DNA of 64,000 nucleotides, taken from positions 62,001 to 126,000 of the forward strand of contig QPMI01000165.1 of assembly GCA_004431415.1 (NCBI GenBank). Direction: 5' to 3'. Shown here one piece after another: positions 1,053-39,890 of the stretch. The notes beneath the pieces are model-generated. The model was given only the letters and a program-made list of their open reading frames with translations. It made no database searches and was not told the DNA's origin. This DNA comes from Cyanophora paradoxa CCMP329 (Eukaryota > Plantae > Glaucophyta). Made by a program: the position numbers and the translations under genes. How positions within the stretch are numbered: position 1 is the stretch's first letter; every line of letters starts with the position of its first letter.

Positions 1053-1071
1053 CTTTATAATTACGAAATAG

Positions 1072-4000: not shown

Positions 4001-4331
4001 TCAATCGACCACTATCGAACCTGGAAGGTATATCTGGGTGAGTGCCACTGGTTTTCAGTTTCCTAGGTCTCCTTCTGGTGGCTTTGATCTCTGCCACTTG
4101 GTTTGCTTTCACATTACCCAAACTAAAAGCAACACTGACATCCTCTTTATCTGGATCGGTTTGATTCACAGATAAAGCATGCTCCCTTGATTGAGTCTTT
4201 GATGAATTATCAGAGCTGTGGTCAATTGAAACTGAACCCTTTACTTTAATATTATCAAAGTTCACATGCTTGGTGCTGCTTGCATTATCCTCTTGAATGG
4301 TTTCTAGATTTGGTGGGTAATTGAAGCTCAT
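1072..4331 (-). CDS. Long fibre protein (~1,085 aa; ORFs 3735-4331 and 1072-3909 joined across a 1-nt frameshift near 3910-3918) with acidic repeats, HxH fibre repeats and a C-terminal H-type-lectin/gp53-like tip
   Basis: HTHTKAEITD(F/L) repeats, G(D/S/N)(Y/F)xDLxN(K/R) repeats, YLPLTGGT fibre motif, C-terminal IQAG...INFNSSFANPPIVTTG...IHYIAV. The 945-aa ORF starts at TTG and overlaps the upstream ATG-started ORF, and one extra base in a homopolymer fuses them. Confidence 0.78.
1690..1960 (-). repeat. Coding tandem repeats (36/54-nt units) encoding HTHTKAEITDF / HTHTKAEITDLGNVAYVG
   Basis: Seven HxH motifs in the translation; near-identical DNA units such as tctgtaatctctgcctt and tgtgcaaaatctgt. 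Confidence 0.9.
2860..3370 (-). repeat. Coding repeats: acidic PDEEEYLPDGFDPQEYEY units (~5-6) followed by KYPPEDHxHDWxEI-type units (3)
   Basis: Visible in the 945-aa translation; recurring ccatctgg(t/c)a DNA core. Confidence 0.85.
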
Positions 4332-4374
4332 GGCTTTTACTATATGGATTTATAAAATTCCTGATAAGTAAAAG

Positions 4375-5930: not shown

Positions 5931-6852
5931 ACTCCAACTGAAAAGAATTGTCGATTCCATTCATATCAATTAGTTCACCAAAGTAATCTTTAAACTCCAC
6001 AGTGAGTTCCCTTATCACCAGGTTTCTGTCATTTATCTGAATGAATTCGGCATGCTCACCACTATGGTAAACATAGCCCCCTATATCTTTACTCAATTGC
6101 AATCTAAGGATAGCTCCCTGGTTTTGTGGTTGCGATTTTGGAATTATATTGTGTCTGCTGGCAAAGGGGGACAGCTCTTTAATATGCATGTACAGATACT
6201 GCTCAGCATTCATATCAGACATCTTCCTGCTGTCAAAATAATATTGCAAGGGCTTAGAGGAGAGTCTGGGTCCTGAGAAGGTGATTCCCCATGCTGGGTG
6301 ATCAGGTGTAATAGGTTTGCCATCATACTTTAACAGGTTCTCAGGTCGATAGGGTGATCCACCAACAGGAGGAGTGCTATAATACCCATTGGTGTATTCA
6401 GTAGAACTCACACCCAAAAGCTTCCCTATTCTCTGGTTGCTTGCAATAAAACGAAACTCATGGTTACTGTAAAACTCCACTTTATAGGTAGTTGGGTTAT
6501 AGAATATCTTGAACTCAAAAGCTACTGTTTTGCCTGCAATGGTTTGGAAGCTTGAATAGTTCAGCCCATAATTATAAGGGTGTGTTACCCCAAAATGACC
6601 CTGATTGATGTAGCCACTGGGAAGGGGATACACTTGTTGTGTGATCACTTGGTTATATGAACCATCTTGGTAATTAAACTGAACTGTTAGATGATCAGTT
6701 CCCACACTGTTATAGATGCTGTTTGGAATCTCTGCATATAGAACCCTGCATTCCCTTGGTCTCTCTACTGGAGTTGTGAGGGTGACCCTGTAAGAGTTTT
6801 CATTTTGTCCTTGGCTTCTATCCCTGCTATCAATATTAACGAGCCGGTTCAT
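5920..6852 (-). CDS. Minor capsid protein (penton-like, single jelly roll) 1
   Basis: N-terminal VNIDSRDR...Y.V.L...AEIPNSIYN and C-terminal YLYMHI.EL...LTVEFKD..GELIDMNGIDNSFQLEF, the pattern of PLV/NCLDV penton-like proteins; sits next to MCP and ATPase. Confidence 0.8.
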   Translation of the reverse strand: MNRLVNIDSRDRSQGQNENSYRVTLTTPVERPRECRVLYAEIPNSIYNSVGTDHLTVQFNYQDGSYNQVITQQVYPLPSGYINQGHFGVTHPYNYGLNYSSFQTIAGKTVAFEFKIFYNPTTYKVEFYSNHEFRFIASNQRIGKLLGVSSTEYTNGYYSTPPVGGSPYRPENLLKYDGKPITPDHPAWGITFSGPRLSSKPLQYYFDSRKMSDMNAEQYLYMHIKELSPFASRHNIIPKSQPQNQGAILRLQLSKDIGGYVYHSGEHAEFIQINDRNLVIRELTVEFKDYFGELIDMNGIDNSFQLEFIE

Positions 6853-6881
6853 TTTAATATATAAATATAGATAAAAGAAGA
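6853..6881. promoter_or_regulatory. 29-bp AT-rich bidirectional promoter region between the two penton genes
   Basis: Sequence tttaatatataaatatagataaaagaaga between head-to-head ATGs. Confidence 0.55.
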
Positions 6882-7892
6882 ATGCCTGTGGATTACATCG
6901 AGGTTAGCTCATTTAATACAATCTCTGGTGATGGTCCCACATCAAGCTTTGTGGCTCGACTCCCCAGTAGTTATGAGAATGTGAGGGCTGTGAGACTGGT
7001 CTCAGCCGAATTTTATAACAGCATCCCTATGGTGAGTGGTGAAACCAAAGCAGGAGATGTCACAGTTGATAACACATTTAGTATTTATTATTCGGAACAA
7101 ACTCCAGGAGCTGGAAGCTCAGGAATTCCAACAACTCGCCCAGCTGCTGATTTTGAACAATGGAAACAATTCATGGTAAATCGCGAGACCCCCATCCAAA
7201 GCCACCAACAGCTGGTGAATGTAATCAACTCAAAATTCATTGGCAGAACTCCCCAACCATCCATTCGCTGCAAATGGGATGAGTCACTGAAACGAATTAT
7301 ATTCCACTCGGCAGTGCCTTTTTACCTGGCTTTCTCACTTGCTGTAAACCCAAGCCAACAAACAATCCAAAAGCTATTGAGTTCAGCTAGACTGCTTGGT
7401 CTTGATCCTGGAAGATATGGGAATTCCCCAATCAAATCCCAAGTTTATGATGCTCTCACTGATGGAATCTTTACTGATGGTCGAGTGAATGGCATTATAT
7501 CTTCTTTTGAGCCTGAGAAGACCAGGGACAGTGTTTTGTTTGTGAGAGTAAAGGAGCTGGGTGATCTGGTTCAATGTGGGGATGGTCTTCTGACTGGTTA
7601 CTTTCATAAAATAGTGGTTCCTGACAAAGATTATGGTGAGCATGTTGTTTACAATTCAACAGAGGCTCATCCACTTTATAAATACTATAACAAAAAGGTT
7701 GGATTATCCACTTTCTCGGTTGATATTGTTAATGCTGTAAATGAACCAATTGATTTTGAGGGTCAACCTGTTCATCTGACCTTTGAAATTCGCTATGGTG
7801 ATGAGCCAGCAGGAGACCCAGTTTATGAATACTTTAAGATGAGAATGTCGCAGCTTCACCCTTCCTATCCAGTTATTACAAGCTTCGCATAA
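6882..7892 (+). CDS. Minor capsid protein (penton-like) 2
   Basis: F...LP..YENVRAVRLVSAEFYNS at the N-terminus; LFVRVKEL and LSTFSVDIVN...PIDFEGQPVHLTFEI at the C-terminus; same architecture as 5920-6852. Confidence 0.78.
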   Translation: MPVDYIEVSSFNTISGDGPTSSFVARLPSSYENVRAVRLVSAEFYNSIPMVSGETKAGDVTVDNTFSIYYSEQTPGAGSSGIPTTRPAADFEQWKQFMVNRETPIQSHQQLVNVINSKFIGRTPQPSIRCKWDESLKRIIFHSAVPFYLAFSLAVNPSQQTIQKLLSSARLLGLDPGRYGNSPIKSQVYDALTDGIFTDGRVNGIISSFEPEKTRDSVLFVRVKELGDLVQCGDGLLTGYFHKIVVPDKDYGEHVVYNSTEAHPLYKYYNKKVGLSTFSVDIVNAVNEPIDFEGQPVHLTFEIRYGDEPAGDPVYEYFKMRMSQLHPSYPVITSFA

Positions 7893-7945
7893 ATTAAGGA
7901 TCATTGGTAGATTTTTTATGTTGCAGTATAATAAAAGAGAATATA

Positions 7946-9316
7946 ATGGATATCACTTCCACTCTTCAAAGACTTTCGCTGAAAGAAGCCCTAACAACCC
8001 CAGAGGAGGCGAAAGCCTTTTTCCTGGATAACTCCCTTATGCTTGGTCTCGAATCCAAGTCTAAGCCAGTTCTAGTTGTTGTGAATCCCAGCAATACTTT
8101 TGAGAATAATGTTGGAAATCGCATTTCCTTCAAGCTACCTCGCTACAATTTCTGTGGAAAACTCGAACTTGCTTTCGACCTTCCAGCCATCACTTTTGCT
8201 GGTGATACTGACCTAGTTCGCAATGGATACACTCGCCCAGTTGGTGCTTTAGTTCAGCGACTTGAAATTACCTATGGATCTTACACCTACCATATTCCAT
8301 CTGATTTCCTTGCTCATTTCCCCCTGGTCTATTATTCGGAGGATCAACTAGCTAAAAAGAAGCGATCAATGGGCATGGTTCATGGCATTCCTGCTCATGG
8401 AACCAACCGCCTTGGTGGCTCATTTTTCGTTGAAATTCCTGTGCCTTGGCTAAATCACTACCTTCCCCTTGGTGCTTTATCTGGTGAAATGGTTGTTACT
8501 GTTTGGTTTAAGGATGCTGGAAAGGGTTATGTTGAAACTTCCTATGGTGGTCGTGGTCTTACTGTTGCAGCAGCTGATGTAGATTATTCAAAAGATGACG
8601 GTCTTGGAACTGCCCCTGCTGAAACTGTTCTGGCAAATGTTGGTCAAAACATCACAGACTTTACTCTTGGTGCAACAACCCCTGTCATTTCTATTACTTC
8701 TCCTCGCCTTTACATGCATGCTATTAATGTTTCTGATGAGCTTTTCGCTACTGTAATTGAAAAAGTAAAGACTACTGGCATGGCTATTCCCTCCCTTGAT
8801 ATTGGATTTGTAGATGCTAGTGCTTTCCCTGCCAAGGGCAATGCCCAACCCAATCGAATTAACCTCTCTCAAATCTCAGGTCTTGTTTATGCTCTGCTTG
8901 TTTCAGTTCGTGATAATGCAACTGTTGATAAATCCACTGGCTCCCACAGTGTTCTTAAGACCTATGCCAACTCCAAAGATATTACTTTCACTGTTGAAAT
9001 TAATGGACAGCGACTTTATGCCACTGAGCCAATTTCCCTACTCAAAGGTGCTGAGCTAATTGCTGATGCCTTCAAATGCTCTAACATGGATAAGGTTGCT
9101 GATCGCTATGTCCTTTCAGGTTTAAGTTTCTGCATTGATGGAGAGAAGGCAATTCGAAATATTGCCCAGTCTGGTTATGTTGATTTAACAAATTCCTCCT
9201 CTTCATTCCTCACCCTGTACATGCCTTCAGATAAGGTAATCGATGTTAATGTTCGCGCTCTCATGCATTCCTATATAATTTTGGACAAAGATGGGCTTCG
9301 TCGTATAAATTTGTAG
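7946..9316 (+). CDS. Major capsid protein (double jelly roll), 456 aa
   Basis: Size and position between penton and ATPase; motifs GNRISFKLPR...LELAFDLP, LVQRLEITYG and FFVEIPVPW...LPLGAL...VTVWF resemble DJR MCP N-terminal strands. ATG 7946 is preferred over TTG 7904. Confidence 0.82.
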   Translation: MDITSTLQRLSLKEALTTPEEAKAFFLDNSLMLGLESKSKPVLVVVNPSNTFENNVGNRISFKLPRYNFCGKLELAFDLPAITFAGDTDLVRNGYTRPVGALVQRLEITYGSYTYHIPSDFLAHFPLVYYSEDQLAKKKRSMGMVHGIPAHGTNRLGGSFFVEIPVPWLNHYLPLGALSGEMVVTVWFKDAGKGYVETSYGGRGLTVAAADVDYSKDDGLGTAPAETVLANVGQNITDFTLGATTPVISITSPRLYMHAINVSDELFATVIEKVKTTGMAIPSLDIGFVDASAFPAKGNAQPNRINLSQISGLVYALLVSVRDNATVDKSTGSHSVLKTYANSKDITFTVEINGQRLYATEPISLLKGAELIADAFKCSNMDKVADRYVLSGLSFCIDGEKAIRNIAQSGYVDLTNSSSSFLTLYMPSDKVIDVNVRALMHSYIILDKDGLRRINL

Positions 9317-9381
9317 ATTGTTACGATATTCAGTCTCCCTGCATTATTTTTATATGTCTTTATTAAGAAAGATATACAACA

Positions 9382-10164
9382 ATGACTGATTTGGATGAAT
9401 TTGTGGCTGGTGAAATGATAGAACCACCATTTCGTGTATTGGCAATAGGAAAATCAGCAACTGGTAAATCAGAAGCTGTAAAGTATTGGTTAAAGCAATT
9501 ACATGATGCCAAAAAGATTGATGTTGTATTAGTTGTGAGTGGAACCAGCTTCAATCATTTCTGGGATAAAGTGGCAACACTGCAACTGGGAAAATGGGAT
9601 GCCCCTTACATTGCTAAATTGCTAGATGAGAGGCAAGAGAAAATAGAGAAAGGTGAACCTGTTAACCAATTGTGTGTGGTTTTAGATGATTTAATCGATA
9701 ATGAGATAGTCGATCTCACAAGGGATAAAATAATCGGATCTCTGTATTCCAGAGGTCGCCATTCGAAAATATCCATTATCTGCATCACACAAAAGCTAAG
9801 AAAAGTCTCTTCGACTATTCGAGTAAATTCGGATTATGCAATGTTTCTAAGTGCTGCAAATCGCAAAGAACTGGAAGCCATAGAGGAAGAATACAATATA
9901 ATGCGAAATAAAGAGGATTTCTACAAGATGTTTGAAGAGTATGTTCACTCCTATCAGTATATCATTTGGTCCTCTGCAAACTACTCAGTTAAATACTATG
10001 TAGATAAAGCTGAGCTTGTGAAAGATTTCCCATTTCCTCGCTTCCACAGGAAGCCAAAAAAGAAAGAAGATGAACTGAAACCACCAGAGAAAGAGGAAGC
10101 CCCCAAAGAAGTGAAAAGCCAAGTCCATAGCAATAAATTGATGCGATATAAACGCGGTTTATAA
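9382..10164 (+). CDS. A32-like (FtsK-HerA) genome packaging ATPase
   Basis: Walker A GKSATGKS, Walker B LCVVLDD, A32 motif RGRHSKISIICITQ, IRVNSDY. Confidence 0.93.
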   Translation: MTDLDEFVAGEMIEPPFRVLAIGKSATGKSEAVKYWLKQLHDAKKIDVVLVVSGTSFNHFWDKVATLQLGKWDAPYIAKLLDERQEKIEKGEPVNQLCVVLDDLIDNEIVDLTRDKIIGSLYSRGRHSKISIICITQKLRKVSSTIRVNSDYAMFLSAANRKELEAIEEEYNIMRNKEDFYKMFEEYVHSYQYIIWSSANYSVKYYVDKAELVKDFPFPRFHRKPKKKEDELKPPEKEEAPKEVKSQVHSNKLMRYKRGL

Positions 10165-10192
10165 AATTATCTCTCATTCTAATAAAGATACA

Positions 10193-10926
10193 ATGCCTCC
10201 CAAACGAAAGATAGGGATCCAGCTGGGGCTGTTGGCTATTCAGGTGGTGGAAACAATGGATCCATTAACACAGATCCACTGAAATTCAATGGTATGAATG
10301 AAGTGAAGCCCTCTCAACAACAAGAAGACCCCCTCAATGCTGCCTATGAGGAATCATTTGATGACAAAGCCCCACAGGCTTCAACCAGTGACCAACTCAA
10401 CATTTCACCTGAAGCCTCAAAGATGAAGGCTGTTGCTGAGGGAGCCAGGCGAATTATTGGTGCTGCTGATGATAAAGGTTTAGGCTTGCAAGATCTTTCA
10501 CTGGCTCGCAAAGGTGAAGGTCTAAGTAAGGAATCAGACAAGGTTATCCAGTCTATGGCTGGTGAAGTCACATATAAGACTGCTCCCACTCAAAATATTC
10601 ATCGAATTCCCAAGGCTCAATGGGATGAGGTGACTGCTAAACTCAAAGATCTGGAAGCCAAATCAAGTGCCTTGGAGCAGTATGTTACTGAGAAGAAAGA
10701 GAGGGCTAAGCTAAAGGAGATGCTTCGAAAGGAAGTATTCAAAATGGGAATTACTGGTGTCCCAGATAAACAGTTTATTGCTAAGAAAGAGAACCAAATT
10801 GATGAGCAGGCAGTAGATGAAATGAAAACAAAGACCCAAAAGGGAACCATTGAACCTGGTGCCACTAAAGCTGAAGTAGAAAAGGGAGTAGCTCCCACAG
10901 TATATAAAAGACGAGTTTGGCTTTAA
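10193..10926 (+). CDS. Hypothetical viral protein (basic N-terminus MPPKR, coiled coil); probable true start at 10193 with a 1-nt frameshift near 10208
   Basis: ORF 10294-10926 is open upstream (DRDPAGAVGYSGGG...). The ATG at 10193 follows the TAAAG motif seen before other viral ATGs. Confidence 0.6.
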
Positions 10927-10946
10927 ATATCTCACAATATTTAAGG

Positions 10947-11216
10947 ATGGAATTTATTTCGCGATTGCTGGAAATGTTTACATTTCACCTACATAGCCAT
11001 TGTGAGCAAGGCTGTTGCGATCTTGATGTGAGCATAGGAGTAAATGACAGTGATCAGGAGGATAATCTTTCTGAGGGCAGAGAGAGAAGGCATTCTGCAA
11101 TTTCTGTGGAGTCAGTGCCACCTACAGAGCATGTGAACCCACCACCTGTATTTGAATATGAGTATAGCCATGATGAGCCAATGTATAGACGCAGGGGGTC
11201 ATTCTCAGACCGGTAA
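10947..11216 (+). CDS. Small hypothetical protein (His/Cys cluster HLHSHCEQGCC)
   Basis: ATG at 10947 with the shared upstream motif; fills the gene-dense array. Confidence 0.5.
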   Translation: MEFISRLLEMFTFHLHSHCEQGCCDLDVSIGVNDSDQEDNLSEGRERRHSAISVESVPPTEHVNPPPVFEYEYSHDEPMYRRRGSFSDR

Positions 11217-11240
11217 AATATTTTTGCATTCGTATTATAA

Positions 11241-11465
11241 ATGGATTGTATTGATTTTGAGGACGAAAGTGTTGTGGAATTTGCATTAGATGATGATAAA
11301 AATGAACAGCATCGAATAAATACTCTAATCTTGAGTCGAATAAGATATAATGAAGACCCCACATATAGAGAGTATAGGAAGACAATTGCTTTGGCATCAT
11401 ATTATCGCAGAAGGGAAGAACGAGGTCTTTTAGGCAGAGGGAGGGGGAGACCAAGAAAATATTAG
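11241..11465 (+). CDS. Small protein with C-terminal AT-hook
   Basis: Ends in GRGRGRPRKY. Confidence 0.6.
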   Translation: MDCIDFEDESVVEFALDDDKNEQHRINTLILSRIRYNEDPTYREYRKTIALASYYRRREERGLLGRGRGRPRKY

Positions 11466-11476
11466 ATAGAGTAGCA

Positions 11477-11599
11477 ATGGACCCCCAGGTCTATAAGATA
11501 ATTGAGAAAAAGCGGTCTCAGTATGCTACTGAGGCAGCTATTAAAGTTTACAGACAGGAACTGGTGTTCGCAACAAAAAATGACTTAAAGAAAAAGTAG
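11477..11599 (+). CDS. 40-aa basic hypothetical protein (below ORF-track cutoff)
   Basis: MDPQVYKIIEKKRSQYATEAAIKVYRQELVFATKNDLKKK*, which fills the gap between neighbouring genes. Confidence 0.4.
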   Translation: MDPQVYKIIEKKRSQYATEAAIKVYRQELVFATKNDLKKK

Positions 11600-11648
11600 A
11601 TAGGTTGTATTGAGGAAAAATTATTTTCGTATCTACTATTAAAGAGAA

Positions 11649-11975
11649 ATGCCGAATATCCGCAAGATACTCACAGATGATGAAAAAGCAGAGAAGCTGA
11701 GACTGAAAAGGGAGCAAGATGCCCAAAGAAAACGCGAAGCCTATCATAAAAAGAAGGAGGAACGATTATCCCAAGGAGCCGCTACAGTTCACACACCAGA
11801 AGAACTCAAAAAGATTGCCCTCAGACACCAGAGGAAATACAGGGAAAATGAAGAATATCGCGAGCAGAAAAAGGCAAAAGCGCTGGAATATTACCACAAG
11901 AAGAAAGATGAACAGCCCAAGAAACCCAAAGAGCATAAACCGGTTGGAAGACCTCGGAAATATATCGAAGAATAA
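11649..11975 (+). CDS. Basic helical DNA-binding-like protein with C-terminal AT-hook
   Basis: K/R/E-rich repeats (AYHKKK, YYHKKK) and terminal PVGRPRKY. Confidence 0.7.
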   Translation: MPNIRKILTDDEKAEKLRLKREQDAQRKREAYHKKKEERLSQGAATVHTPEELKKIALRHQRKYRENEEYREQKKAKALEYYHKKKDEQPKKPKEHKPVGRPRKYIEE

Positions 11976-12193
11976 ATTCTCGATCGAACCAAATTTTGTA
12001 GAAATCGATTTGATCGGAGGCAAAAAAATGACAGCTTTCTTCCCTCTTTTTTAAAACTGTACCTATATATCGAGACAGTATCCCGACCCAAAACTACTTA
12101 AGGACTTGGCAAATAATAGGATATATATAAAAGACAATTCCTCCTTCCGAAATTATTTTCTTCGTTAAAGATAGAAGTCCCCCAAAATCGAAA

Positions 12194-14788
12194 ATGAACA
12201 AAATCGAGAAATTCGCCACCCCTGTTGAAAATGCTACATTCCTTAGTACTCTCATTGGTGATCGCAACAAGGTCACCCATGTATTTGATTCCGCCGAAGA
12301 TGCCCTTGAAGCCATTGATAATAGCAAGGTTAAGACCTGGGCTGAATGCATTCAGCCTGAACAAGTCACCAGAGTTTACCTGGACCTGGATAAATTCGCT
12401 GATTTGAAGGAGAACATTGCTGAAAACTATGCTGAGGCTGAAACTGTTGTAAGAGAGATGAGAGATAAGCTATGGAAGCGATCTGGGACCACTTCGATTA
12501 ACGATATTGCTGTTGCAGTTCGCCATAGAAGGGTTTATTTGATCAAGGAGGATGTCACCAAGTTCAAGATCTCAGCCCACTTTATCATTAAATCGCTTGC
12601 ATGCAAACATGAAGATATCCCCAAGCTTTTCAAAGCTATGGGATTGGTGAAAAATGAGGATTATGACAGTGGAGTTTACAGCTCCACACAGAACCTTATC
12701 TGCCTCAATTGCTGCAAAGGTGAGACTCTGGATGCTCAAAATAAATCAAAGAAAGATGTTGATAAAAACGTTTGCTTTAAGAAATTCGTTGACTGTGACA
12801 AAGTGTTAATGCGAAATGAGGACTTCTTTGTATCTTTCTTCTCAGCTTCTACTAAACTTGTGGATGAATCGAATATTTCTGCATTCGCAAATTATAGCCC
12901 TGAGCCAAAACCAGTTAAAAAGGAGCCAAAAAGTGATAAAGTGAAGACTGAGAAGGTAGAAGCTGAAAAAGACACTGAACCCGAAAATCCTGTTACTTTC
13001 GAACTGCTACAAAGTGTTATAATGGGTCTGAATGGTGAGAGAGCTAATGAGTATAAAACTTGGATTGATGTAGGACTGGTCATCATCAATGTTGGGGAAG
13101 ACAACAAGTTCACCCCTAAAATGCAAGCTGAACTCTTCCACCAATTCTCAGAACAGAGTGACAAGTATGATTATGATGAATGCCAGGAGAAGTTTACACA
13201 GCTTCGCAGAAGCAAGAAGAAGGCTGAGCCTGGCAAAGTGTTGACCTTCAAATCCTTGGTTTATTGGTTGAGCAAAGATAACAATGAGCTTTTCAAGGAA
13301 CTCTTCCCCAAAAAGTATGCATTCCTACCAGAGGACACAGATGAAATCGATTACAAGACTGCAAGTATCCCTCCTTTGGCTGAACATTACAATGTGCATA
13401 AGAGGTATTTCAATGCTCGAATGCATCATGTTGAAAATGTTGGTTGTGTGATGCTCTGGGATGAACAACTACTTTGCTGGATGCCCAAAGATATTGGGAA
13501 GCTCTCTACAAAGCATTTCCCCCATTTGATGCATAAGGTGATTGTGAATGAGGGGACAGATAATGAGAAAGAGAAATGGGAGCAATCATTTAGGAAATGG
13601 ATTGTGGATCCAACAGCCACAAGATCAACTTACATGGATTTCCTTCCCCCTCCTGCTACTCTCAGTGCAAAATGCAAGTCTGTATTTAATCTCTATCCAG
13701 GAATGAAGGTCGACCATCAGCAATTCGAAAATGCCCCAGAGGATGTAACTGCTGAGATGATTAAGCCTTTCCTAGATCACCTGTTCTTAATGTCTGGTGA
13801 GGATCAAAATACCTATGAATACCTGTTGAAATGGTTTGCCCACATGCTGCAAAAGCCTGGGGAACTCAATGGAGTATCCTTAATCTTCATTGGTGAGCAG
13901 GGAACTGGTAAAAATGTGTTGGTTGATACTTTCCAAAAGAAGATACTTGGAGATGCCCTAAGTTATGCAACTGGAAAGCCAAAAGAGGATCTGTTTGGTC
14001 GATTTGCCCACAATAGAGAGGATAAGATCTTGATTGTTGTGAATGAAGCCTCAGGCAAGGACACATTCGAAAATAATGATATGCTCAAAGATCTCATTAC
14101 TTCTGATAAGATTGTTATTGAACACAAAGGGATAGATTCATACACAAAAAGCAACTTTGCCAGGATTATATTTACCAGCAATAATAACATTCCAGTGAAA
14201 ATTGAAGCTGGAGATAGGCGATTTGTGGTTGTTGAAGTTAGTAAGAAATTCGCAAAGGATAGGTCATACTTCCTTCCACTTGTAAAATGGCTAAATGATC
14301 ACTGCAATATTCGAAACATTGCCCACTATTTGAGAACCAAAGTTGACTGTGAGGATGTGAACTGGATTGCTGATAGACCCCTTACAAATAAATACTATTT
14401 AGCCCAGCAGGTATGCGCCCCAATCATTCTTATGTTCACTAAGTGGCTTGTGGATCGAGGCTTAATTTCCGAGAATAAATGCAAGTCTGGTAGCCTTGTG
14501 GAAACCTGGAAGTGGTTCCAGGAGTTTATTACCAGCAACAAATATAAAAACGATTATAATAGTCGCAGATATTATACAGAAATGCGAAGTGTGACATATA
14601 TCCAAGTGAAAACTACAAATGGCAAACAATACTATCATTTCTTGTTCCCACAAGTATTTGAGGAATTCAGAAAGATGAAACTTGTAGATGATGAGACTAT
14701 TGAGGAAGAAGCTAATCCAAGGATGAAACAGGACCTACCTGCTGCTGATCCTGATGCATCAGATTATGACTCTGATGTTGAAGTTTAG
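12194..14788 (+). CDS. AEP primase-polymerase + PriCT-2 + superfamily 3 (D5-like) helicase
   Basis: AEP motifs RVYLDLD, ISAHF and YDSGVY; PriCT-2 YKTWIDVG...FHQFSEQSDKYD; Walker A GEQGTGKN, Walker B IVVNEA, sensor IFTSNN, GDRRF. Confidence 0.9.
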   Translation: MNKIEKFATPVENATFLSTLIGDRNKVTHVFDSAEDALEAIDNSKVKTWAECIQPEQVTRVYLDLDKFADLKENIAENYAEAETVVREMRDKLWKRSGTTSINDIAVAVRHRRVYLIKEDVTKFKISAHFIIKSLACKHEDIPKLFKAMGLVKNEDYDSGVYSSTQNLICLNCCKGETLDAQNKSKKDVDKNVCFKKFVDCDKVLMRNEDFFVSFFSASTKLVDESNISAFANYSPEPKPVKKEPKSDKVKTEKVEAEKDTEPENPVTFELLQSVIMGLNGERANEYKTWIDVGLVIINVGEDNKFTPKMQAELFHQFSEQSDKYDYDECQEKFTQLRRSKKKAEPGKVLTFKSLVYWLSKDNNELFKELFPKKYAFLPEDTDEIDYKTASIPPLAEHYNVHKRYFNARMHHVENVGCVMLWDEQLLCWMPKDIGKLSTKHFPHLMHKVIVNEGTDNEKEKWEQSFRKWIVDPTATRSTYMDFLPPPATLSAKCKSVFNLYPGMKVDHQQFENAPEDVTAEMIKPFLDHLFLMSGEDQNTYEYLLKWFAHMLQKPGELNGVSLIFIGEQGTGKNVLVDTFQKKILGDALSYATGKPKEDLFGRFAHNREDKILIVVNEASGKDTFENNDMLKDLITSDKIVIEHKGIDSYTKSNFARIIFTSNNNIPVKIEAGDRRFVVVEVSKKFAKDRSYFLPLVKWLNDHCNIRNIAHYLRTKVDCEDVNWIADRPLTNKYYLAQQVCAPIILMFTKWLVDRGLISENKCKSGSLVETWKWFQEFITSNKYKNDYNSRRYYTEMRSVTYIQVKTTNGKQYYHFLFPQVFEEFRKMKLVDDETIEEEANPRMKQDLPAADPDASDYDSDVEV

Positions 14789-14798
14789 GTTTACTCAA

Positions 14799-14980
14799 AA
14801 GTGGACTCATGGTTGACTCAAATTTATCATAAAAGACCCAAACAGTCTTTTATTTATGGTTTATTTATCGATTAGGTTGACTAAGTGGGGGGAGTTGACT
14901 CATTTTTTCACAGATTCTAAAAAAGGACTCTGCCCTAAAAAGAAATAAAAAGTGCCTCAACTCCACCCACTAAGTCAACC
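14799..14980. repeat. Internal iteron/inverted-repeat cassette (candidate origin), diverged direct copy of 20873-21059
   Basis: aagtggactcatggttgactca (14799-14820) is identical to 20873-20894. Inverted arms 14875-14898 and 14957-14980 match at 22/24. A 9-bp AT hairpin lies at 14829-14853. Confidence 0.8.
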
Positions 14981-15031
14981 AAAAAATGATTTAAGAGATA
15001 GAAAAATATATTTATATGTAAGTAGTAAGAA

Positions 15032-15382
15032 ATGGCTGGAACAGATCATGATTCTGGATCGATCTATATGATTGAGAGTGAAGAATTGAATAAAGTTTAT
15101 ATAGGGAGAACCTCACAGCCACTACAAAAAAGATGGAGACAACACAAATCAGGTCAAATGCCATCTACAGCAGACCTATGCAAGGCTTCTGATGTGAGGT
15201 TTTCAGTCCTTTATTCAACTAAGAAGGGTGGGCATGAAGACCTTATGAACAGAGAAGCATATTACATGTATCTCTTTGAATCTTGGATAGTCAATCTACA
15301 AAAACCGAAATCTCGATTTAGGATTAATAGGTTTTTGCGATTTCATTCAGAGGAAGCCAATGGATCCATTAAAACATTTTAA
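15032..15382 (+). CDS. GIY-YIG endonuclease
   Basis: GSIYMI...KVYIGRT...LQKRWRQH, with later E (NREAYY) and N (IVN). Confidence 0.88.
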   Translation: MAGTDHDSGSIYMIESEELNKVYIGRTSQPLQKRWRQHKSGQMPSTADLCKASDVRFSVLYSTKKGGHEDLMNREAYYMYLFESWIVNLQKPKSRFRINRFLRFHSEEANGSIKTF

Positions 15383-15442
15383 ATTGCGTTTAGAACATCC
15401 TAAAATAAAATATCCCCTTAGAATAGGAACAAGTTAGGAATA

Positions 15443-18400
15443 ATGCCCCGAATTACCAACAAACTCATAAGGGAGAAGAAATGGGAACTCATGGGATTGC
15501 TGGGAACACTTTATGCAGCCCATGAAATTACAGAGGCTGAATATGACCGGGAAATAGATTTAATTGCAAAGGGCAGACCCACTTTAAGCAGATTAACCAG
15601 AAAAGCAAATAACCTATATGATAAAATTGAAACCTTGGATGAATTGGATAGGCTTAGGCAAATAGAACCAGATGCAGAAGATGGAACAGCCATGAATGAA
15701 TTATATCGCTGGCTCACTTACAGAGCCAGAAGGGAAGTTGTTGTAGATGTGATTGAATTCCTGGATAGAATTGCTACATCCCTTCCAAATCGATTAAAGC
15801 AGGGTTTAGATCAATTCAGGGCAATCAAGGTTCGCTTGTCTTTTATCTGCAAGTTCGTTAAAGTGAGCAATCCACAGGTTTGGATATCGAAATACATTTA
15901 CAGTGATTACTTTGTATTAACCAGGTCGAGAAATATTCGAACTGAGCTGAATAAAGCAGCCCAAATGTGTCAGGAGCAGATGAATGTGGTTGATAGCTAT
16001 CGCTTAGAAAGAATTGAAATACTCAGAGTGGCTATTATGAGTTATGCTCCAACTGGTGGTTGCTTTCTACAAACCCCAGAGTGGATTGCTAGGAAGAGAG
16101 CCACAGTGAATATTCGAAATATTGATGATTCCTGCTTCGAAAATGCGATTTTAGCCTCGATTTACAGAAAATCTATTAACTCCCATAAGAGGAATGAGCT
16201 TTCACAATATCGCAAATGGAAATACTCAGCAATCGCTTATAATCCGCTGGCTCTCAATTTCGACAATATCCCATTCCCTGTTGCCTGTGATGCTGAAATA
16301 ATTGATAAATTCGAGGCTCAAAATGCAGGCATTAGCATTAATATATTCGGAATCGATGGAGAGGTTGTTTATCCCCTGCATCAATCCAGTAACCCAGGCA
16401 GAAAGCATAAGGTTAATCTCATGCTGATATTTGATGATGAAGGGAATGGTCATTATATTACAATCATGTCCCTTTCAAGATTATTGAAAGTAAACCATGA
16501 AACATACAATGATCAGAAGTTACACTACTGTGACACATGCTTATCTCGATTCAGGTCTGAGGCTAAACTCACTGCTCATGTGGACTCAAATAGATGCATT
16601 GACTGGAGACTCTCAAAGGGAATCACCCCTAAACCTGAGACCACCATAGAGTTTGGACTGAAAAACCTCAGGAAAACTGTGTGGCTTCCTGTTGTGGTCT
16701 ACTGCAAGATTGAACATAGAAGCATCCCCATTGATGCATCGAAATCCAAGAGGGAAGTTTCAGCAGTCAACCTTAGAGTAGTCACTGGGGAAGATGTTCA
16801 AGATTTTCGATTTGAGGGGCAGGATCCAATGGGAGGTCTCTTTGAATGCTTGGAGTCCAAAGCAAGAGAGCTGATCGATTTTCTGTTTACCAATATTCCC
16901 ATGAATGAACTCACAGATGAGCAAAAGGCTGTTTACAGGGCTACTAAACACTGTTACCTTTGCAGTGAGAGGTTCACCAAGGAGAACTTCAAATGCAGGG
17001 ATCATGATCACCACACAGGTCAGTACATTGCTCCTGCATGCAGAAACTGCAATCTACATAGGAGAATCTCAAAGCAAACAAAAGTAGCAGTGGTTGTTGA
17101 CCAAATGGATGACTGTGGGACATTCATTTTCAGAAAAATAGCAGGCATGGGTGATAAAAAGCGAATCGAAATCCTTTCGAAAAACTTTGATCAATACCTT
17201 TCATTGCAATGGGGTCTTTACAAGTTCATTGATGCAAGTAATTTTATGGACTTTGGGGCTGCTGATGTAGATGAGTTAATGAGCAAATTCCAGGCTTTCA
17301 GAAGGCTTTCACACTCAGTATATGGATTGGACCCAGTTCATTATGTATCTGCACCTGGGTTATCTTGGGATGCTATGCTTAGGACCACCAAGGCAAAAAT
17401 AGAGCTTATAAGTGATGTAGAGCAATACGAATTTGTTGAGAGGGGAATCAGGGGTGGCTTTGCAACAATGCCTTGTAGGTATGCTGAGGCTGATGGTGAA
17501 AACTCCCACATTATGCTGTTTGATGCTAACAACTTGTATGGCTACTGTTTGAGTCAGCCAATCCCAGTTGGTGATTTTAGATGGGAGACCGAATTCAACC
17601 CACAAGATAACAGATCCAGTTTCCTGGAAGTTGATCTGGATTACCCAATTAGGCTGTTTCTAGATCACAGTGATTTCCCCCTAATTATTAACAAGAAAAT
17701 AGTAGAATATGCCGAATTATCACAATATCAAAAAAGCCTATTGGATCTCTCAGGAGAAGAGCTTGATAAGACCCCTAAGCTAACTGCAACCTTTGGTTCT
17801 GTGACCAACTATGTGATTTCTGAGCCTCTTCTACAGTATATTCTGACCAAAGGTGTGAAACTTAAAAAGGTTCACAGGGTCCTATCATTTACTGTGGCTC
17901 CTGTAATGAAATCTTATATTGAGCTGAACACTGAGATGAGAAGGAAAGCAGTGAATAAATTCGAGGCTGATTTCTATAAGCTCATGAATAACTCAATCTA
18001 TGGGAAATGCATTGAATCTTGCAGGGGTAGATCTGTGGTTAAGATTGCAAACAGTGAGAAACTATTTATGAAATATGCAGCCTCTCCTTTAGTGAAATCA
18101 ACAAGTCCCATAAGTGAAAGGGCAGTTGCATTTGAGTTTTACACAAAACATGTGAAGCTAGATAAGCCAGTTGCTATTGGGGCTTATGTTTTGGATGCTG
18201 CCAAACTGCATAATTACCAGTTCTTCTATGATACTGTGAGGTCCCAATGGTCAAAAGCAAAGTTGCTATTCCATGATACTGATTCCTTCTGTCTATATAT
18301 TGAATCTCACACCCTCCAAAAGGACCTGGGGAATATCTCTTATGCATTGGACCTTGGAGGTGATTCAAGAATGACCCCAGGTAAATACAAAAATGAAATG

Positions 18401-18688
18401 CCAGGTTCTGCTATATTAGAATATGTGGGTCTGAGAGCCAAAGTTTACAGTTTCAGAACTGCTGAGATTGAGAGAAGTAAGCTCTCTGGGACTTCCACTG
18501 GGGAACTCCAATTTAATGATTTTAAGCAGTGTTTATTTGCAGGTATCAGCAAGACTGTGACTGCAAAGCAGAAAAGAAGGGCAGATCACACAATAGTAGA
18601 CACTGTGAGTAGAAGGGTTGCCCTGAACTGCTTTGATGCAAAGAGATACATCTTACCAGATGGTATTAATTCTGTTCCTTTTAATTAA
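15443..18688 (+). CDS. Protein-primed family B DNA polymerase (Polinton-type) with vOTU-like, zinc-finger and EndoVII-like domains; 3'-5' exonuclease degenerate
   Basis: Pol motifs FDANNLYG, KLMNNSIYGK, FHDTDS and GLRAKVYS; GLDPVHYVSAPGLSWDAML and ERGIRGG; EndoVII-like CYLC...RDHDHHTG...CRNCN; DDSCF...GHY vOTU-like dyad; CDTC...H zinc finger. Confidence 0.93.
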   Translation: MPRITNKLIREKKWELMGLLGTLYAAHEITEAEYDREIDLIAKGRPTLSRLTRKANNLYDKIETLDELDRLRQIEPDAEDGTAMNELYRWLTYRARREVVVDVIEFLDRIATSLPNRLKQGLDQFRAIKVRLSFICKFVKVSNPQVWISKYIYSDYFVLTRSRNIRTELNKAAQMCQEQMNVVDSYRLERIEILRVAIMSYAPTGGCFLQTPEWIARKRATVNIRNIDDSCFENAILASIYRKSINSHKRNELSQYRKWKYSAIAYNPLALNFDNIPFPVACDAEIIDKFEAQNAGISINIFGIDGEVVYPLHQSSNPGRKHKVNLMLIFDDEGNGHYITIMSLSRLLKVNHETYNDQKLHYCDTCLSRFRSEAKLTAHVDSNRCIDWRLSKGITPKPETTIEFGLKNLRKTVWLPVVVYCKIEHRSIPIDASKSKREVSAVNLRVVTGEDVQDFRFEGQDPMGGLFECLESKARELIDFLFTNIPMNELTDEQKAVYRATKHCYLCSERFTKENFKCRDHDHHTGQYIAPACRNCNLHRRISKQTKVAVVVDQMDDCGTFIFRKIAGMGDKKRIEILSKNFDQYLSLQWGLYKFIDASNFMDFGAADVDELMSKFQAFRRLSHSVYGLDPVHYVSAPGLSWDAMLRTTKAKIELISDVEQYEFVERGIRGGFATMPCRYAEADGENSHIMLFDANNLYGYCLSQPIPVGDFRWETEFNPQDNRSSFLEVDLDYPIRLFLDHSDFPLIINKKIVEYAELSQYQKSLLDLSGEELDKTPKLTATFGSVTNYVISEPLLQYILTKGVKLKKVHRVLSFTVAPVMKSYIELNTEMRRKAVNKFEADFYKLMNNSIYGKCIESCRGRSVVKIANSEKLFMKYAASPLVKSTSPISERAVAFEFYTKHVKLDKPVAIGAYVLDAAKLHNYQFFYDTVRSQWSKAKLLFHDTDSFCLYIESHTLQKDLGNISYALDLGGDSRMTPGKYKNEMPGSAILEYVGLRAKVYSFRTAEIERSKLSGTSTGELQFNDFKQCLFAGISKTVTAKQKRRADHTIVDTVSRRVALNCFDAKRYILPDGINSVPFN

Positions 18689-18691
18689 GAG

Positions 18692-20077
18692 ATGCCAGCA
18701 ACTGGAAGAATAGTTAGGAGAACCACTGAGCAACTGCAAGGTAACCTACTGCCTATCACAATTCCAAAGGAGGAAAAGGGGGAATCTCGAATTGTTAAAA
18801 AGTCTGAAATGAAAGAGCTTGTCCCAGTAGAGATCCCAGTTGCCATTGCAGTGAAAGAAACTAGCAAGATTGCCAAGAGATTCTATGATGTGAGAACTGG
18901 TTACAAAGGGCTTCAAGCTATGAGGGCTGAGTTACCTGATGAATCCTATAAGCAGTTGCAAGAGTTCTATAAGAAACAGGAAGTTGTTCAGATCAATGCA
19001 CCAGCTATATCTAGAAAGAGAGATCCCATGGTCCCAATCAGGCAACCCCTTGATACCTATGTGATTGATTTGCTCTTTTTCCCAGCTTATAAGAAACAAA
19101 ACAATGGCTATGATACTTTTATGACTGCAATGGAATCAACACTGAGAACTGGTTATATTATACCTATAAGGGATAAATCAGCTCTCACTACATTAGCTGC
19201 ATTTAAACAGCTTGAAATGAGAGTGGCAAGACCCATAGTAAAGGTTCAATCAGATGCTGGAAGTGAATTCCAAAATCGAATATTCCAGGAGTATTTATCT
19301 AGTAAATACATAGAACACCAAGTGAGTGGAACTGCTGACCACAGAAGCCAAGGTCGAATTGAAGCCTTTAACAAGCAGATTAAGAGACTGATCACAAACT
19401 ACTGCATAGCTAATAACACAGCTAGATTCTTTGATGTGTTAGGTGATATTGAGTATAATTACAATAATACAGTTCACTCAGCTACTAAGATGAAGCCAGG
19501 CGAAACTACAGAGAAGCATTATAGGTATATAGTGGGATTAGAAGATGAAAGATTCAAGAAATCAATAGCTTATCTTGACACCATGCAGCCTGGCATGTTT
19601 GTTAGAGTGAAAGTTGAGAAGAACCCCTTTGCTAAACAGGGTAACAATTGGTCTAGGATGGTTTACACTGTTGATAGTAGGGAAGGCTTTAAGTTTAAGC
19701 TAAGGAGTCCCACTGGTGAGATCATAGATAACAGGTTTGCTTTCCATGAGCTGTTGCATGTGAATGCAGTTGAATATCTAGAAACCCCTACAGTGGATGC
19801 CTTAGAGCAAGCCAAAGAGGAAGCCAGGGTTGATGCTGCTATAAGGAGAGAGGGCATAGAAGCTGCTAATGAAGTCCCAGATAAGCCTTTGATAGAGGCT
19901 AGAAAGGAGAAGACTGGCAAGGTTAATAGGGAACTCAAAAAGCTCACCATAGCAGGGACACAGAAACTTTCAGAAGTGAATAGCCAGAGATGGTATAGTG
20001 ACTTTCAGACTACTAAGGAGTCATATACAGCCCCTAAACCTCAAAGAACACTAAGAGAGAGGACCAAAACTAGCTAG
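18692..20077 (+). CDS. Retroviral-like (rve/DDE) integrase, Polinton type
   Basis: Catalytic D (YVIDL), D (VQSDAGSEF) and E (QGRIEAFN); YNNTVHSATKMKP; C-terminal G.FVRV...F.K...NWS..VYTV. Confidence 0.93.
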   Translation: MPATGRIVRRTTEQLQGNLLPITIPKEEKGESRIVKKSEMKELVPVEIPVAIAVKETSKIAKRFYDVRTGYKGLQAMRAELPDESYKQLQEFYKKQEVVQINAPAISRKRDPMVPIRQPLDTYVIDLLFFPAYKKQNNGYDTFMTAMESTLRTGYIIPIRDKSALTTLAAFKQLEMRVARPIVKVQSDAGSEFQNRIFQEYLSSKYIEHQVSGTADHRSQGRIEAFNKQIKRLITNYCIANNTARFFDVLGDIEYNYNNTVHSATKMKPGETTEKHYRYIVGLEDERFKKSIAYLDTMQPGMFVRVKVEKNPFAKQGNNWSRMVYTVDSREGFKFKLRSPTGEIIDNRFAFHELLHVNAVEYLETPTVDALEQAKEEARVDAAIRREGIEAANEVPDKPLIEARKEKTGKVNRELKKLTIAGTQKLSEVNSQRWYSDFQTTKESYTAPKPQRTLRERTKTS

Positions 20078-21360
20078 TTTGCTAGCCGAAAACTCGTTTT
20101 TTCAAAATATATGTATGACTGATATACATATATGCATATGCTATACACATAGTCTTGTAGATCTTTTCAAGCGCTTCACAGCGATATGCAGAACGTTGCG
20201 ATTTGATAATCTGGTGATGAGATACAAGCGTTTGAAGATGCCGATTATCGATTTTTCGAGATTTCGGAATGATGCATCATAATGATGTAATAATGATGTA
20301 TCATAAACATATAACATATATATATCGCCGTGATCGTCATGATCTCCCGAGTTCGATGGTGTGTCATATATATCATATACATTTGCATCGTCATTATGAC
20401 ATCATTTCGTAAAATTACACGTCCGTCATCGTCTTTTTCCGCAGCGAACAGATAAGTGAACAGTTAAGGAGACAACTATTGTAATAGTGGACTGCAACAA
20501 CAATTGAAAACAAGATCTGTGGGAAAGCTATTGAAAGACAATGAAGCAAATTGCGAACAATTAAGTGAACAGTTAAGTGGACACCTGTTGGGAGTAGGCA
20601 GTGTCTACTCGTTTATCGTGAAACGGTGTCCACTTAACTGTTCATTTAACTGTTGACGAAAACCCATGCATTATGACATCATATCATTAAACCCCATACA
20701 AAACACTAAAATGCATGTATCTCTTCACCAACTCATCATCTTACAAAGATAAAAACAGATTCGGAATCCTCTTAACGAGACCAGCGTGACTATGTAAGTA
20801 TCATAGGCTCAATAATTCATATGTTAATAAGCATCTCCCCTAGATTCCCCCTATTATATTATATTTATATTTAAGTGGACTCATGGTTGACTCATATTAA
20901 TCGTAAAAGTAGTAAAAGTATATGGATTTTGTTACGAATTCAATGCAAGGGTTGACTAAGTGGGTTGAGTTGACTCAAATTTCACAGGAAATATTTGGGA
21001 CCTAAAGTTTTCTAAAAAGGATTTCAAAAAATGTGTCAACTCCCCCCACTTAGTCAACCCTGACCATAAACAGTAAGGATTTGAGCTAACATGTATCACA
21101 AAGTGAACATATTGAGTCCACTTAGAAGATCCACTTTTGAAATCCAAGTTGATTTTGCTTGAAATTTCAAAGTTGATCTAAAAGTGAGTCCACCCTGATT
21201 GATTATGGTAACAAAGTTGACTAAGTTGACTAAGTTGAGTCATATTAAGAAATTCAAGGAGACTAAGAGTTCAAAATGTTAATGAAAAGTGAGTCAACTT
21301 AGACCACTTATGGTAACAAATTTAAATATTTAATTGATTTAATCGGAAAAGAACATGATT

Positions 21361-21585
21361 TAATCGAATTTATTGATATAATTCCGATTAGATTCATTTA
21401 GGATTCAATTAAGATCAATCGAAGTTATTGATATAATTCCGATTAACTACAATTAAGATACAATATCGATTAATCGAGTTTATCGATATAACATCGATTA
21501 AATTAATTGAAATGCATATAAAAATATGAAAATTCATGTGAAAATTCAAATAAATTAATCGATTTTATTGATATAACATCGAATC
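21361..21585. repeat. Four imperfect AT-rich repeats, core aatcga.(t/g)ttat(t/c)gatataa(ttc/cat)cga
   Basis: Copies start near 21362, 21417, 21472 and 21557. Confidence 0.75.
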
Positions 21586-21659
21586 ACACATATGAATATT
21601 CATATTTTAATCCTGAGGCGGAACGCCGAGGGATTAAAATATGAATATTCATATGTGTG
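21585..21659. repeat. Perfect 29-bp inverted repeat with GGCG-GAA-CGCC inner hairpin at the virus-host boundary
   Basis: cacacatatgaatattcatattttaatcc (21585-21613) is the exact reverse complement of 21631-21659. Confidence 0.9.
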
Positions 21660-21664
21660 CGCAG

Positions 21665-25116: not shown

Positions 25117-34363
<9,247 letters not shown>

Positions 34364-34416
34364 CGATATTGCGTTCATTTTCTATACTCTATATAGCTAG
34401 TAATAACAGCCTATAG

Positions 34417-36109: not shown

Positions 36110-39890
<3,781 letters not shown>

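What the first reader, a model, noticed from the sequence alone, without database searches (positions are those of the whole stretch)
7946..20077. Context-specific CpG avoidance: viral genes keep almost only TCG/CGA
Seen (by-eye tally, approximate): CpG is scarce in the viral ORFs, and nearly all remaining CpGs have a 5' T or a 3' A. About 30 CpGs occur in pPolB with only ~2 exceptions (gaccggg, atccgct), and MCP and integrase look similar. Base composition alone would leave roughly half in other contexts. The terminal non-coding region (agcgct, aacgtt, cacgtccgtc) and host DNA show no such restriction. Inference: the footprint of a flank-sensitive cytosine methylation/deamination or CpG-sensing defence acting on [ACG]CG[CGT], which could be an undescribed host silencing specificity.
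Basis: partly seen in the sequence, partly recalled or inferred. Interest (0 to 1): 0.7.

Follow-up and report, generated by a model that had tools for sequence, protein, structure and literature searches.

The report
Flank-graded CpG purge in algal virus
A multi-copy virus inserted in what is likely the alga Cyanophora has lost about 95% of its CG pairs unless a T sits next to them, likely because the host's methylation mark falls poorly on T-flanked sites, and it separately lacks several restriction-enzyme-type words, one of them on one strand only, which would point to DNA-cutting enzymes acting inside a eukaryotic cell.

Summary
CpG observed/expected is graded: TCGA 1.13, one T flank about 0.37, no T flank (VCGB) 0.06. 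The gradient survives codon shuffles, holds at synonymous sites (3-, 10- and 46-fold loss) and between genes, and is absent from host DNA. A T flank on either strand protects equally. The host is likely Cyanophora paradoxa, which has DNMT1/3, 32% mCG and methylated viral genes. Best reading (0.5): host CpG methylation with a strong aversion to T flanks, eroded over the virus lineage by C>T change and silencing escape. No methylation data could be tested. Mouse DNMT1 does not spare TCGA, and the human 5'-T effect has the right direction but is only about 1.3-fold. One unrelated polinton of 88 shows the same gradient. New variant of a known kind.

The parts
1..21660 (.). Polinton-like virus, right-hand 21.7 kb (left end lies outside the window), 40% GC in a 70% GC host
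   Evidence: Gene content; GC step; contig depth about 10,000-18,000 over most of it (1,800-4,000 over 11.0-15.7 kb) against 34-46 for single-copy flank in run X1, dropping after about 21.66 kb (depth is only a rough guide to copy number)
1..20077 (.). Zone of flank-graded CpG loss: TCGA 82, one T flank 127, VCGB 25
1..21660 (+). Zone free of restriction-type words: GGCC 0, GRGCYC 0, CTGCAG 0, GTAC 5, CTYRAG 5; GCAC 2 on the + strand against GTGC 31
   Evidence: these words resume in the flank from 21680 (CTCGAG) to 21851 (GAGCTC), CTGCAG at 22664
3..1052 (-). C1q-domain protein, likely fibre or receptor-binding, cut by the window start
   Evidence: PF00386 E=3e-8
1072..3705 (-). Fibre with two phage-tail repeats and an H-lectin domain
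   Evidence: PF12789 x2, PF09458; the same architecture is reported once, in a C. paradoxa PLV
4375..5930 (+). Patatin (4375-5007) and discoidin F5/8 (5139-5930) ORFs; likely one frameshifted gene in this copy
   Evidence: other copies differ by a one-base insertion in this stretch; the fusion is described for PLVs
7946..9316 (+). Major capsid protein; 28 CpGs, 3 VCGB
   Evidence: Atlas neighbours with Capsid_N/Capsid_NCLDV at 0.97-0.98, low recognition value; 59-60% identical to a C. paradoxa protein; no Pfam hit
9382..10164 (+). A32-type packaging ATPase
   Evidence: PF04665 E=5.6e-11
12194..14788 (+). Primase-helicase (PriCT-2 and DUF5906)
15032..15382 (+). Stand-alone GIY-YIG nuclease, 116 aa
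   Evidence: PF01541 E=1.3e-10; no informative solved relative
15443..18688 (+). Protein-primed family B polymerase with an endonuclease VII-like insert; 32 CpGs, 2 VCGB
18692..20077 (+). Retroviral-type integrase; 4 CpGs, 0 VCGB
   Evidence: PF00665 E=1.3e-4, below the curated cut-off; tblastn hits in 34 fetched loci
20078..21660 (.). Terminal non-coding region: CpG o/e 1.11, mild VCGB deficit (11 of 47), no GGCC, GTAC or GCAC
21585..21659 (.). Terminal inverted repeat able to form a hairpin (36-nt arms, 92% complementary)
   Evidence: sits at the depth boundary

Best explanation
The virus has lost its CpG pairs in a graded way set by the neighbouring bases, likely because the host's CpG methyltransferases mark each integrated copy efficiently except where a T flanks the pair, and the marked sites were then likely removed over the long history of the virus lineage by C-to-T change plus selection to escape silencing. 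Shown: the gradient; its independence from codons; its additivity (about 1.3 log-odds units per T flank, on either strand); its absence from host DNA; the multi-copy integrated state. From the literature: C. paradoxa has DNMT1 and DNMT3, 32% mCG, and methylated, silent viral genes. Inferred: host identity, methylation of this family, the enzyme's T aversion, and the route of loss. Protection at the level of the whole pair is what a maintenance system would give, since a site that one strand methylates poorly loses the mark on both. A separate layer, loss of GGCC, GTAC, GRGCYC, CTYRAG and one-strand GCAC, likely reflects selection by restriction-type nucleases, most plausibly those of a giant virus of the same host.
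For: Gradient in all three codon positions, at synonymous sites (40/177, 51/674 and 12/659 against a baseline of 0.46) and in 1,267 nt of intergenic DNA (7:13, 10:50, 2:61; OR 8.2, P=0.002). Focal-strand and partner-strand T effects are equal (1.32+-0.21 and 1.24+-0.21, no interaction). TpG/CpA o/e is 1.27, and T takes 65% of the gap between a 'spread evenly' model and a pure C>T model at four-fold sites. The gradient remains after removing opportunities that overlap twelve restriction-type words (82:263, 119:1306, 5:648). Host methylome. Flank-dependent CpG methylation is known in a protist (Amoebidium, CGC/GCG 70% against 20%). DNMT3 is reported to prefer RCGY over YCGR (second-hand). 5'-T lowers and 5'-A raises methyl-CpG mutation in primates. 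L062, an unrelated polinton without palindrome avoidance, shows the same gradient, so the two layers are separable.
Against: No methylation data were seen for this element or by context. Host DNA in the window, including two repeat-like low-GC stretches, shows no CpG loss and no gradient, although most repeats of this species are reported as methylated. A subfamily of roughly 35-50 copies is invariant over contigs holding 7 and 16 CpGs, so no decay after insertion is visible; copies may be young and contigs drop rare variants. Mouse DNMT1 does not spare TCGA (7 of 16 NTCGAN hexamers in the top activity bin, none in the bottom bin; read by eye). An RCGY score does not track retention significantly (rho -0.40, P=0.25). 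The human effect is only 1.3-1.4-fold. About a third of the gap is not C>T, and Ser, Pro and Val codons fit the 'spread' model. A coding-strand T protects more than a coding-strand 3' A (1.74 against 0.81), which a symmetric DNA mark does not predict. Three other CpG-poor loci (L013, L051, L079) are flat.
Confidence: 0.5

Rival explanations
1. Selection by a protein that reads VCG on each strand and destroys or silences the virus: a CpG-directed or methyl-directed nuclease of a giant virus or of the host, the element's own GIY-YIG nuclease, or an RNA-level CpG sensor. The CpG gradient would then be part of the same anti-nuclease purge as GGCC, GTAC and GCAC.
For: The additive log-odds cost per flank (-1.07, -2.34, -3.83) is what per-strand selection gives. 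The element demonstrably avoids restriction-type words. The host shows no CpG erosion. No decay is seen among copies. The coding-strand asymmetry fits an RNA reader. Giant viruses carry restriction enzymes, packaged in the virion in chloroviruses, and C. paradoxa holds giant-virus insertions.
Against: Non-palindromic words that are not classical four-base sites (ACGG/CCGT, ACGC/GCGT) are among the most depleted. L062 has the gradient without palindrome loss, and none of the 13 of 72 loci with palindrome loss shows a strong, significant gradient (L089 has too few CpGs to judge). The excess of T before G favours deamination. No such nuclease was identified.
Confidence: 0.25
2. No special enzyme: methylation is even, and the ordinary flank dependence of 5mC deamination and repair (5'-T lowest, 5'-A highest) has been amplified over a long time.
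For: The rank order agrees with primate data: TCGA 2.07 < TCGC 2.19 < GCGA 2.54 < ACGT 2.62 < GCGC 2.73 < CCGG 2.86. It recurs in an unrelated element.
Against: A 1.3-1.4-fold rate difference does not give a 12- to 18-fold difference in retention near equilibrium (inference). This model predicts protection mainly of the C that carries the 5' T, but the partner's T protects equally. Other CpG-poor polintons are flat.
Confidence: 0.13
3. A signature of the virus's own replication (polymerase error bias or damage to displaced single strands), or a legacy from an earlier host.
For: The element encodes its own polymerase and primase-helicase. Current copies show no decay. GCAC loss is tied to one strand.
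Against: 87 of 88 other polymerase-bearing loci lack a strong significant gradient, and the nearest one on the tree (L090) has no CpG loss. The CpG effect is largely strand-symmetric.
Confidence: 0.1
4. An artefact of amino-acid or codon usage, for example CGA kept because TGA is a stop, or frequent NTC-GAN codon pairs.
For: Position-1 CpGs are better kept, and TCGA is over-represented against base composition in host DNA too (1.87).
Against: The gradient survives both null models, synonymous-only counts and intergenic DNA. The host's TCGA excess disappears under the CG:(TG+CA) control while the virus's gradient does not.
Confidence: 0.02

Closest known systems
5mC silencing of viral insertions in protists (C. 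paradoxa, PMC12344493; Amoebidium, PMC11244446)
   Same: DNMT1/3 host, CpG methylation on integrated viral DNA; Amoebidium shows flank-dependent CpG methylation
   Different: The sections read report no flank analysis for C. paradoxa. In Amoebidium the preference is for CGC/GCG and is overridden on silenced repeats. Neither reports CpG erosion by flank in the viral sequence in the parts read.
Flank dependence of methyl-CpG mutation in primates (PMC13245866)
   Same: 5'-T lowest, 5'-A raises the rate; upstream and downstream effects largely independent
   Different: About 1.3-1.4-fold across the six contexts seen, against 12- to 18-fold in retention here; here a T on the partner strand protects as much
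DNMT flanking preferences (mouse DNMT1, PMC7381644; DNMT3 RCGY over YCGR as cited in PMC4810514)
   Same: Up to about 100-fold flank effects exist. DNMT1's top substrates contain ACGT and CCGT, which are the most depleted here; DNMT3 disfavours YCGR, which includes TCGA
   Different: DNMT1 methylates TCGA well and depends most on position -2; CCGG (a YCGR word) is strongly depleted here
Restriction-site avoidance; phage T7 strand bias against type III EcoP15 (PMC3874151); giant-virus restriction systems (PMC7253447)
   Same: Loss of palindromic sites that survives codon control; an asymmetric site kept in essentially one orientation
   Different: A eukaryotic integrating virus; four-base word; no cognate enzyme identified; 2 sites remain in the avoided orientation and the tolerated orientation is itself somewhat reduced
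Polinton-like viruses of glaucophytes (PMC12220804)
   Same: pPolB, rve integrase, A32 ATPase, capsid, fibre with two tail repeats and H-lectin, patatin and discoidin
   Different: That paper's main text has no mention of CpG or tetranucleotides

Membership tests
Polinton-like virus | Double jelly-roll major capsid protein | tested here: met
   Atlas neighbours carry Capsid_N/Capsid_NCLDV; no Pfam hit; no fold predicted
Polinton-like virus | A32 ATPase, protein-primed polymerase, integrase | tested here: met
   (integrase below the curated cut-off)
Polinton-like virus | Terminal inverted repeats and target-site duplication | not testable with these tools
   Left end is outside the window; no genome held
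Polinton-like virus | GC contrast and multi-copy integration | tested here: met
Methylation-driven CpG decay | CpG deficit with TpG/CpA excess | tested here: met
   CpG 0.29, TpG/CpA 1.27; 65% of the gap to a pure C>T model
Methylation-driven CpG decay | Host has active CpG methyltransferases that mark viral DNA | tested here: inconclusive
   Published for C. paradoxa; host identity rests, while host-gene searches found nothing
Methylation-driven CpG decay | This element is methylated, less so at T-flanked sites | not testable with these tools
   No base-modification data available
Methylation-driven CpG decay | CpG hypermutability among inserted copies | tested here: inconclusive
   1 of 14 variant places in 11500-12500 hits a CpG; 3 of the 40 listed differences in 3001-23000 do
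Mouse DNMT1 flank profile | Spared contexts are those DNMT1 disfavours | tested here: not met
   TCGA hexamers are not disfavoured; retention of TCG is higher with A/T at -2, not C
Restriction-site avoidance | Palindromic words depleted beyond codon usage, virus only | tested here: met
   GGCC 0/27.9, GTAC 4/40.9, GRGCYC 0/8.8, CTYRAG 3/14.7; abundant in host
Restriction-site avoidance | Cognate enzyme identified in host or co-infecting virus | not testable with these tools
   No genome held; none among the element's ORFs in the window
Type III-type strand bias | Asymmetric site kept in one orientation regardless of gene direction | tested here: met
   + strand GCAC 2/25.9 in plus genes and 0/7.2 in minus genes; GTGC 16/27.8 and 12/13.3; P=3.9e-5, best of 118 word pairs
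Type III-type strand bias | An enzyme needing two inverted sites | not testable with these tools
   None identified

The most novel reading that the evidence does not exclude
The virus genome is a read-out of a restriction arsenal working inside a eukaryotic cell: a nuclease or reader that recognises VCG on each strand, several palindrome cutters, and an orientation-dependent, type III-like enzyme for GCAC, which the virus evades as phage T7 does by keeping its sites in one orientation. A second polinton-like contig (L017) shows the same one-strand purge for another word (TCAG).
Probability: 0.25. Interest if true: 0.78.

Novelty: new variant of a known kind. Interest (0 to 1): 0.52.

Why it matters
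If the best reading holds, endogenous virus sequence records the flank specificity of a host methyltransferase. A 5'-T aversion this strong would be a DNMT specificity not seen in the papers read, in an early branch of the plant lineage, and it can be checked at once on published EM-seq data. If the nuclease reading holds, it gives sequence evidence for the proposed but unshown role of restriction systems in giant virus-satellite virus conflict (PMC7253447 found no support in Acanthamoeba mimiviruses; PMC12220804 proposes it) and predicts the sites the enzymes cut. The word profile also gives a way to group environmental polinton-like viruses by the hosts and giant viruses they meet.

Tried and rejected
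No whole genome was held, so other elements and DNMT genes of the host could not be examined. Searches for close relatives in viral contigs with MCP, an MCP alignment, the helicase and the integrase found none; all comparators are distant polymerase relatives (29-42% identity). Two host-gene searches gave no hit. No RNA holder was listed. Codon artefact: rejected. A panel of classical four-base restriction sites as the cause of the CpG gradient: rejected. Splice-donor avoidance as the cause of GCAC loss: considered because host introns seem to start GTAC, GCAC or GTGC (read by eye); rejected because GCAC is common on the coding strand of minus genes (12) and absent from their + strand; it may still add to GTAC/GGTA loss. 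Mouse DNMT1 profile: does not fit. The element's GIY-YIG as a CG cutter (analogy to T4 endonuclease II, recalled): no support from solved structures, and only 2 fetched loci gave weak hits to it. Copy-to-copy variation was too sparse to give a mutation spectrum. Searches of earlier findings for the CpG gradient or strand-polarised avoidance gave nothing.
Full report
What the region is. Window 1-21660 is a 40% GC block in 70% GC, intron-rich host DNA. It encodes fibre proteins, patatin and discoidin domains, a capsid protein, an A32 ATPase, a primase-helicase, a GIY-YIG nuclease, a protein-primed polymerase and an rve integrase, so it is a Polinton-like virus. In three DNA runs its contig depth is tens to hundreds of times that of the flank and falls at about 21.66 kb (the tool warns that depth is no copy number). 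The capsid's only close relative is 59-60% identical and comes from Cyanophora paradoxa. The fibre architecture (two tail repeats plus H-lectin) was reported once, in a C. paradoxa PLV (PMC12220804). The host is therefore likely C. paradoxa. Two host-gene searches returned nothing, so this is not confirmed from host genes.

The observation. In 1-20077 there are 234 CpGs: TCGA 82 (o/e 1.13), one T flank 127 (0.42 and 0.33), and VCGB 25 against 399 expected (0.063). In 14 ORFs the VCGB share is 0.092, below all 500 codon shuffles (mean 0.371) and all 500 CpG-blind resamplings (mean 0.480), and the deficit holds in each codon position. At synonymous opportunities CpG is kept at 40 of 177, 51 of 674 and 12 of 659 for two, one and no T flanks, against a baseline of 0.46, which is a 2.9-, 10- and 46-fold loss in odds. 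Intergenic DNA is graded too (OR 8.2, P=0.002), host DNA is flat (OR 0.93), and the terminal 1.6 kb keeps its CpGs but is mildly VCGB-poor (OR 2.3, P=0.02).

Anatomy of the rule. A regression on 1,556 synonymous opportunities gives equal protection from a T 5' of the C that would mutate (1.32+-0.21) and from a T 5' of the partner C (1.24+-0.21), with no interaction. Protection therefore acts on the pair. Written on the coding strand, the 5' T counts more than the 3' A (1.74 against 0.81, better likelihood at equal parameters); this may be an RNA-level or codon-family effect and is unexplained. TpG/CpA is 1.27. At four-fold sites before G, T is seen 400 times of 755, against 334 if the lost C were spread evenly and 436 if all became T: mostly, not purely, C>T. 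Removing all opportunities that overlap twelve restriction-type words leaves the gradient intact.

Copies. In 11500-12500 a subfamily at roughly 35-50 times single-copy depth forms unbroken contigs over stretches with 7 and 16 CpGs, and only 1 of 14 variant places hits a CpG. Of the 40 best-supported differences shown for 3001-23000 (1,916 more not shown), 3 are CpG>TpG, two of them at VCGB sites. The depletion is thus an old property of the active lineage, not visible decay after insertion. The data are too thin for a mutation spectrum.

Comparators. 105 loci were fetched with the polymerase; L005-L007 were dropped as repeats of L001-L003, and several others are near-duplicates. Of 88 other loci with at least 150 synonymous opportunities, one (L062) shows a strong, significant gradient with strong loss (OR 5.3, P=4e-5; retention 0.57, 0.33, 0.09). 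Several show weaker gradients with little loss (L085, L038, L061, L039, L081, L103; OR 2-3.4), three have too few CpGs to judge (L050, L080, L089), and many are flat or reversed. L062 is far from the window's polymerase on an 88-sequence tree and lacks GGCC/GTAC/GCAC avoidance. L013, L051 and L079 are CpG-poor but flat. The gradient is rare, recurrent, and not an automatic result of CpG loss.

A second layer. Against codon shuffles the element has GGCC 0 of 27.9, GTAC 4 of 40.9, GRGCYC 0 of 8.8 and CTYRAG 3 of 14.7; CTGCAG (0 of 3.9) is marginal. GCAC occurs twice on the + strand against 31 GTGC (P=3.9e-5, best of 118 pairs), in genes of both directions. All these words are common in host DNA. 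Thirteen of 72 fetched loci of at least 4 kb also purge non-CpG palindromes. One of 36 other loci of at least 8 kb, L017, has a one-strand purge (TCAG 4/25 against CTGA 62/63), again independent of gene direction. Keeping an asymmetric site in one orientation is how phage T7 escapes the type III enzyme EcoP15 (PMC3874151). Chloroviruses package restriction enzymes that degrade host DNA (PMC7253447), and C. paradoxa carries giant-virus insertions (PMC12344493). That proviruses lacking such sites survive a giant-virus infection better is my inference.

Mechanism. C. paradoxa has intact DNMT1 and DNMT3, 32% mCG, methylated repeats and methylated viral genes. The sections read and a search of the supplementary text show no analysis by flank; figures could not be seen. 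The best reading is host methylation that is weak at T-flanked pairs, with loss by C>T change and by selection against silencing (0.5). Against it: host DNA is not eroded, copies show no decay, mouse DNMT1 does not spare TCGA, an RCGY score does not fit, and the primate flank effect has the right sign but only 1.3-1.4-fold size in the six contexts seen. Selection by a VCG-reading nuclease or sensor (0.25) fits the additive costs and the second layer but not L062 or the T excess. Amplified intrinsic chemistry (0.13) and viral replication bias or legacy (0.10) remain. Codon artefact is excluded (0.02).

Papers seen. PMC12344493: abstract, passages, sections 5, 6 and 9, supplementary text search. 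PMC11244446: passages. PMC7381644: passages, section 8, source-data parts 1, 3 and 4 of 6. PMC13245866: abstract, passages, twelve rows of S1 Table. PMC4810514, PMC7253447, PMC3874151: passages. PMC12220804: passages and the first part of section 13. All others: search listing only. Searches that found no description of a TCG-sparing CpG loss or of site avoidance in polinton-like viruses; the library lacks most subscription journals. Enzyme-type labels for the avoided words and the T4 endonuclease II analogy are recalled, not from calls.

Verdict. This is a new variant of known kinds (methylation-linked CpG loss; restriction-site avoidance), unusual in its size and in the one-strand purge, and directly testable on existing data. 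Interest 0.52.

Noticed in passing
window 1-21660: GCAC is purged from the + strand only (2 against 31 GTGC), in genes of both directions; GGCC, GTAC, GRGCYC and CTYRAG are purged too.
   Followed up: yes
L017:1-13851: Polinton-like contig purging AGCT, CATG, GATC, TCGA and TGCA, with TCAG lost from one strand only (4/25 against CTGA 62/63).
   Followed up: partly
L062:1-5295: Unrelated polinton fragment with nearly the same CpG gradient (TCGA 1.31, one T 0.45, VCGB 0.08) and no palindrome avoidance; host unknown.
   Followed up: partly
L003, L017, L019, L021-L024, L029, L036, L066, L089, L097, L100: 13 of 72 polymerase-related loci purge one to four non-CpG palindromes, most often GATC or CATG.
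   Followed up: partly
window 21585-21659: 75-nt inverted repeat at the element's right end, able to form a hairpin.
   Followed up: no
window 14864-14908 and 21026-21070: 45-nt inverted copies (87%), one just after the primase-helicase gene and one in the terminal region, amid short repeated words.
   Followed up: no
window 11005-15673: Contig depth is about five times lower than in the rest of the element, so the helicase module appears to be swapped among copies.
   Followed up: no
window 3735-4331 and 4375-5930: Other copies differ by one-base insertions in these ORFs, so both look frameshifted in this copy.
   Followed up: no
window 31400-41900: Host tandem duplication of about 5.5 kb (99-100% identical) with ABC-transporter-like exons, a low-GC stretch ending in a run of A, and a 151-nt repeat; no CpG loss.
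   Followed up: partly
window 28000-30000: Host introns appear, by eye, to use both GT and GC donors with C-rich interiors.
   Followed up: no
window 21661-23200: Single-copy 53% GC flank with a fourfold TCGA excess but no CpG loss.
   Followed up: partly
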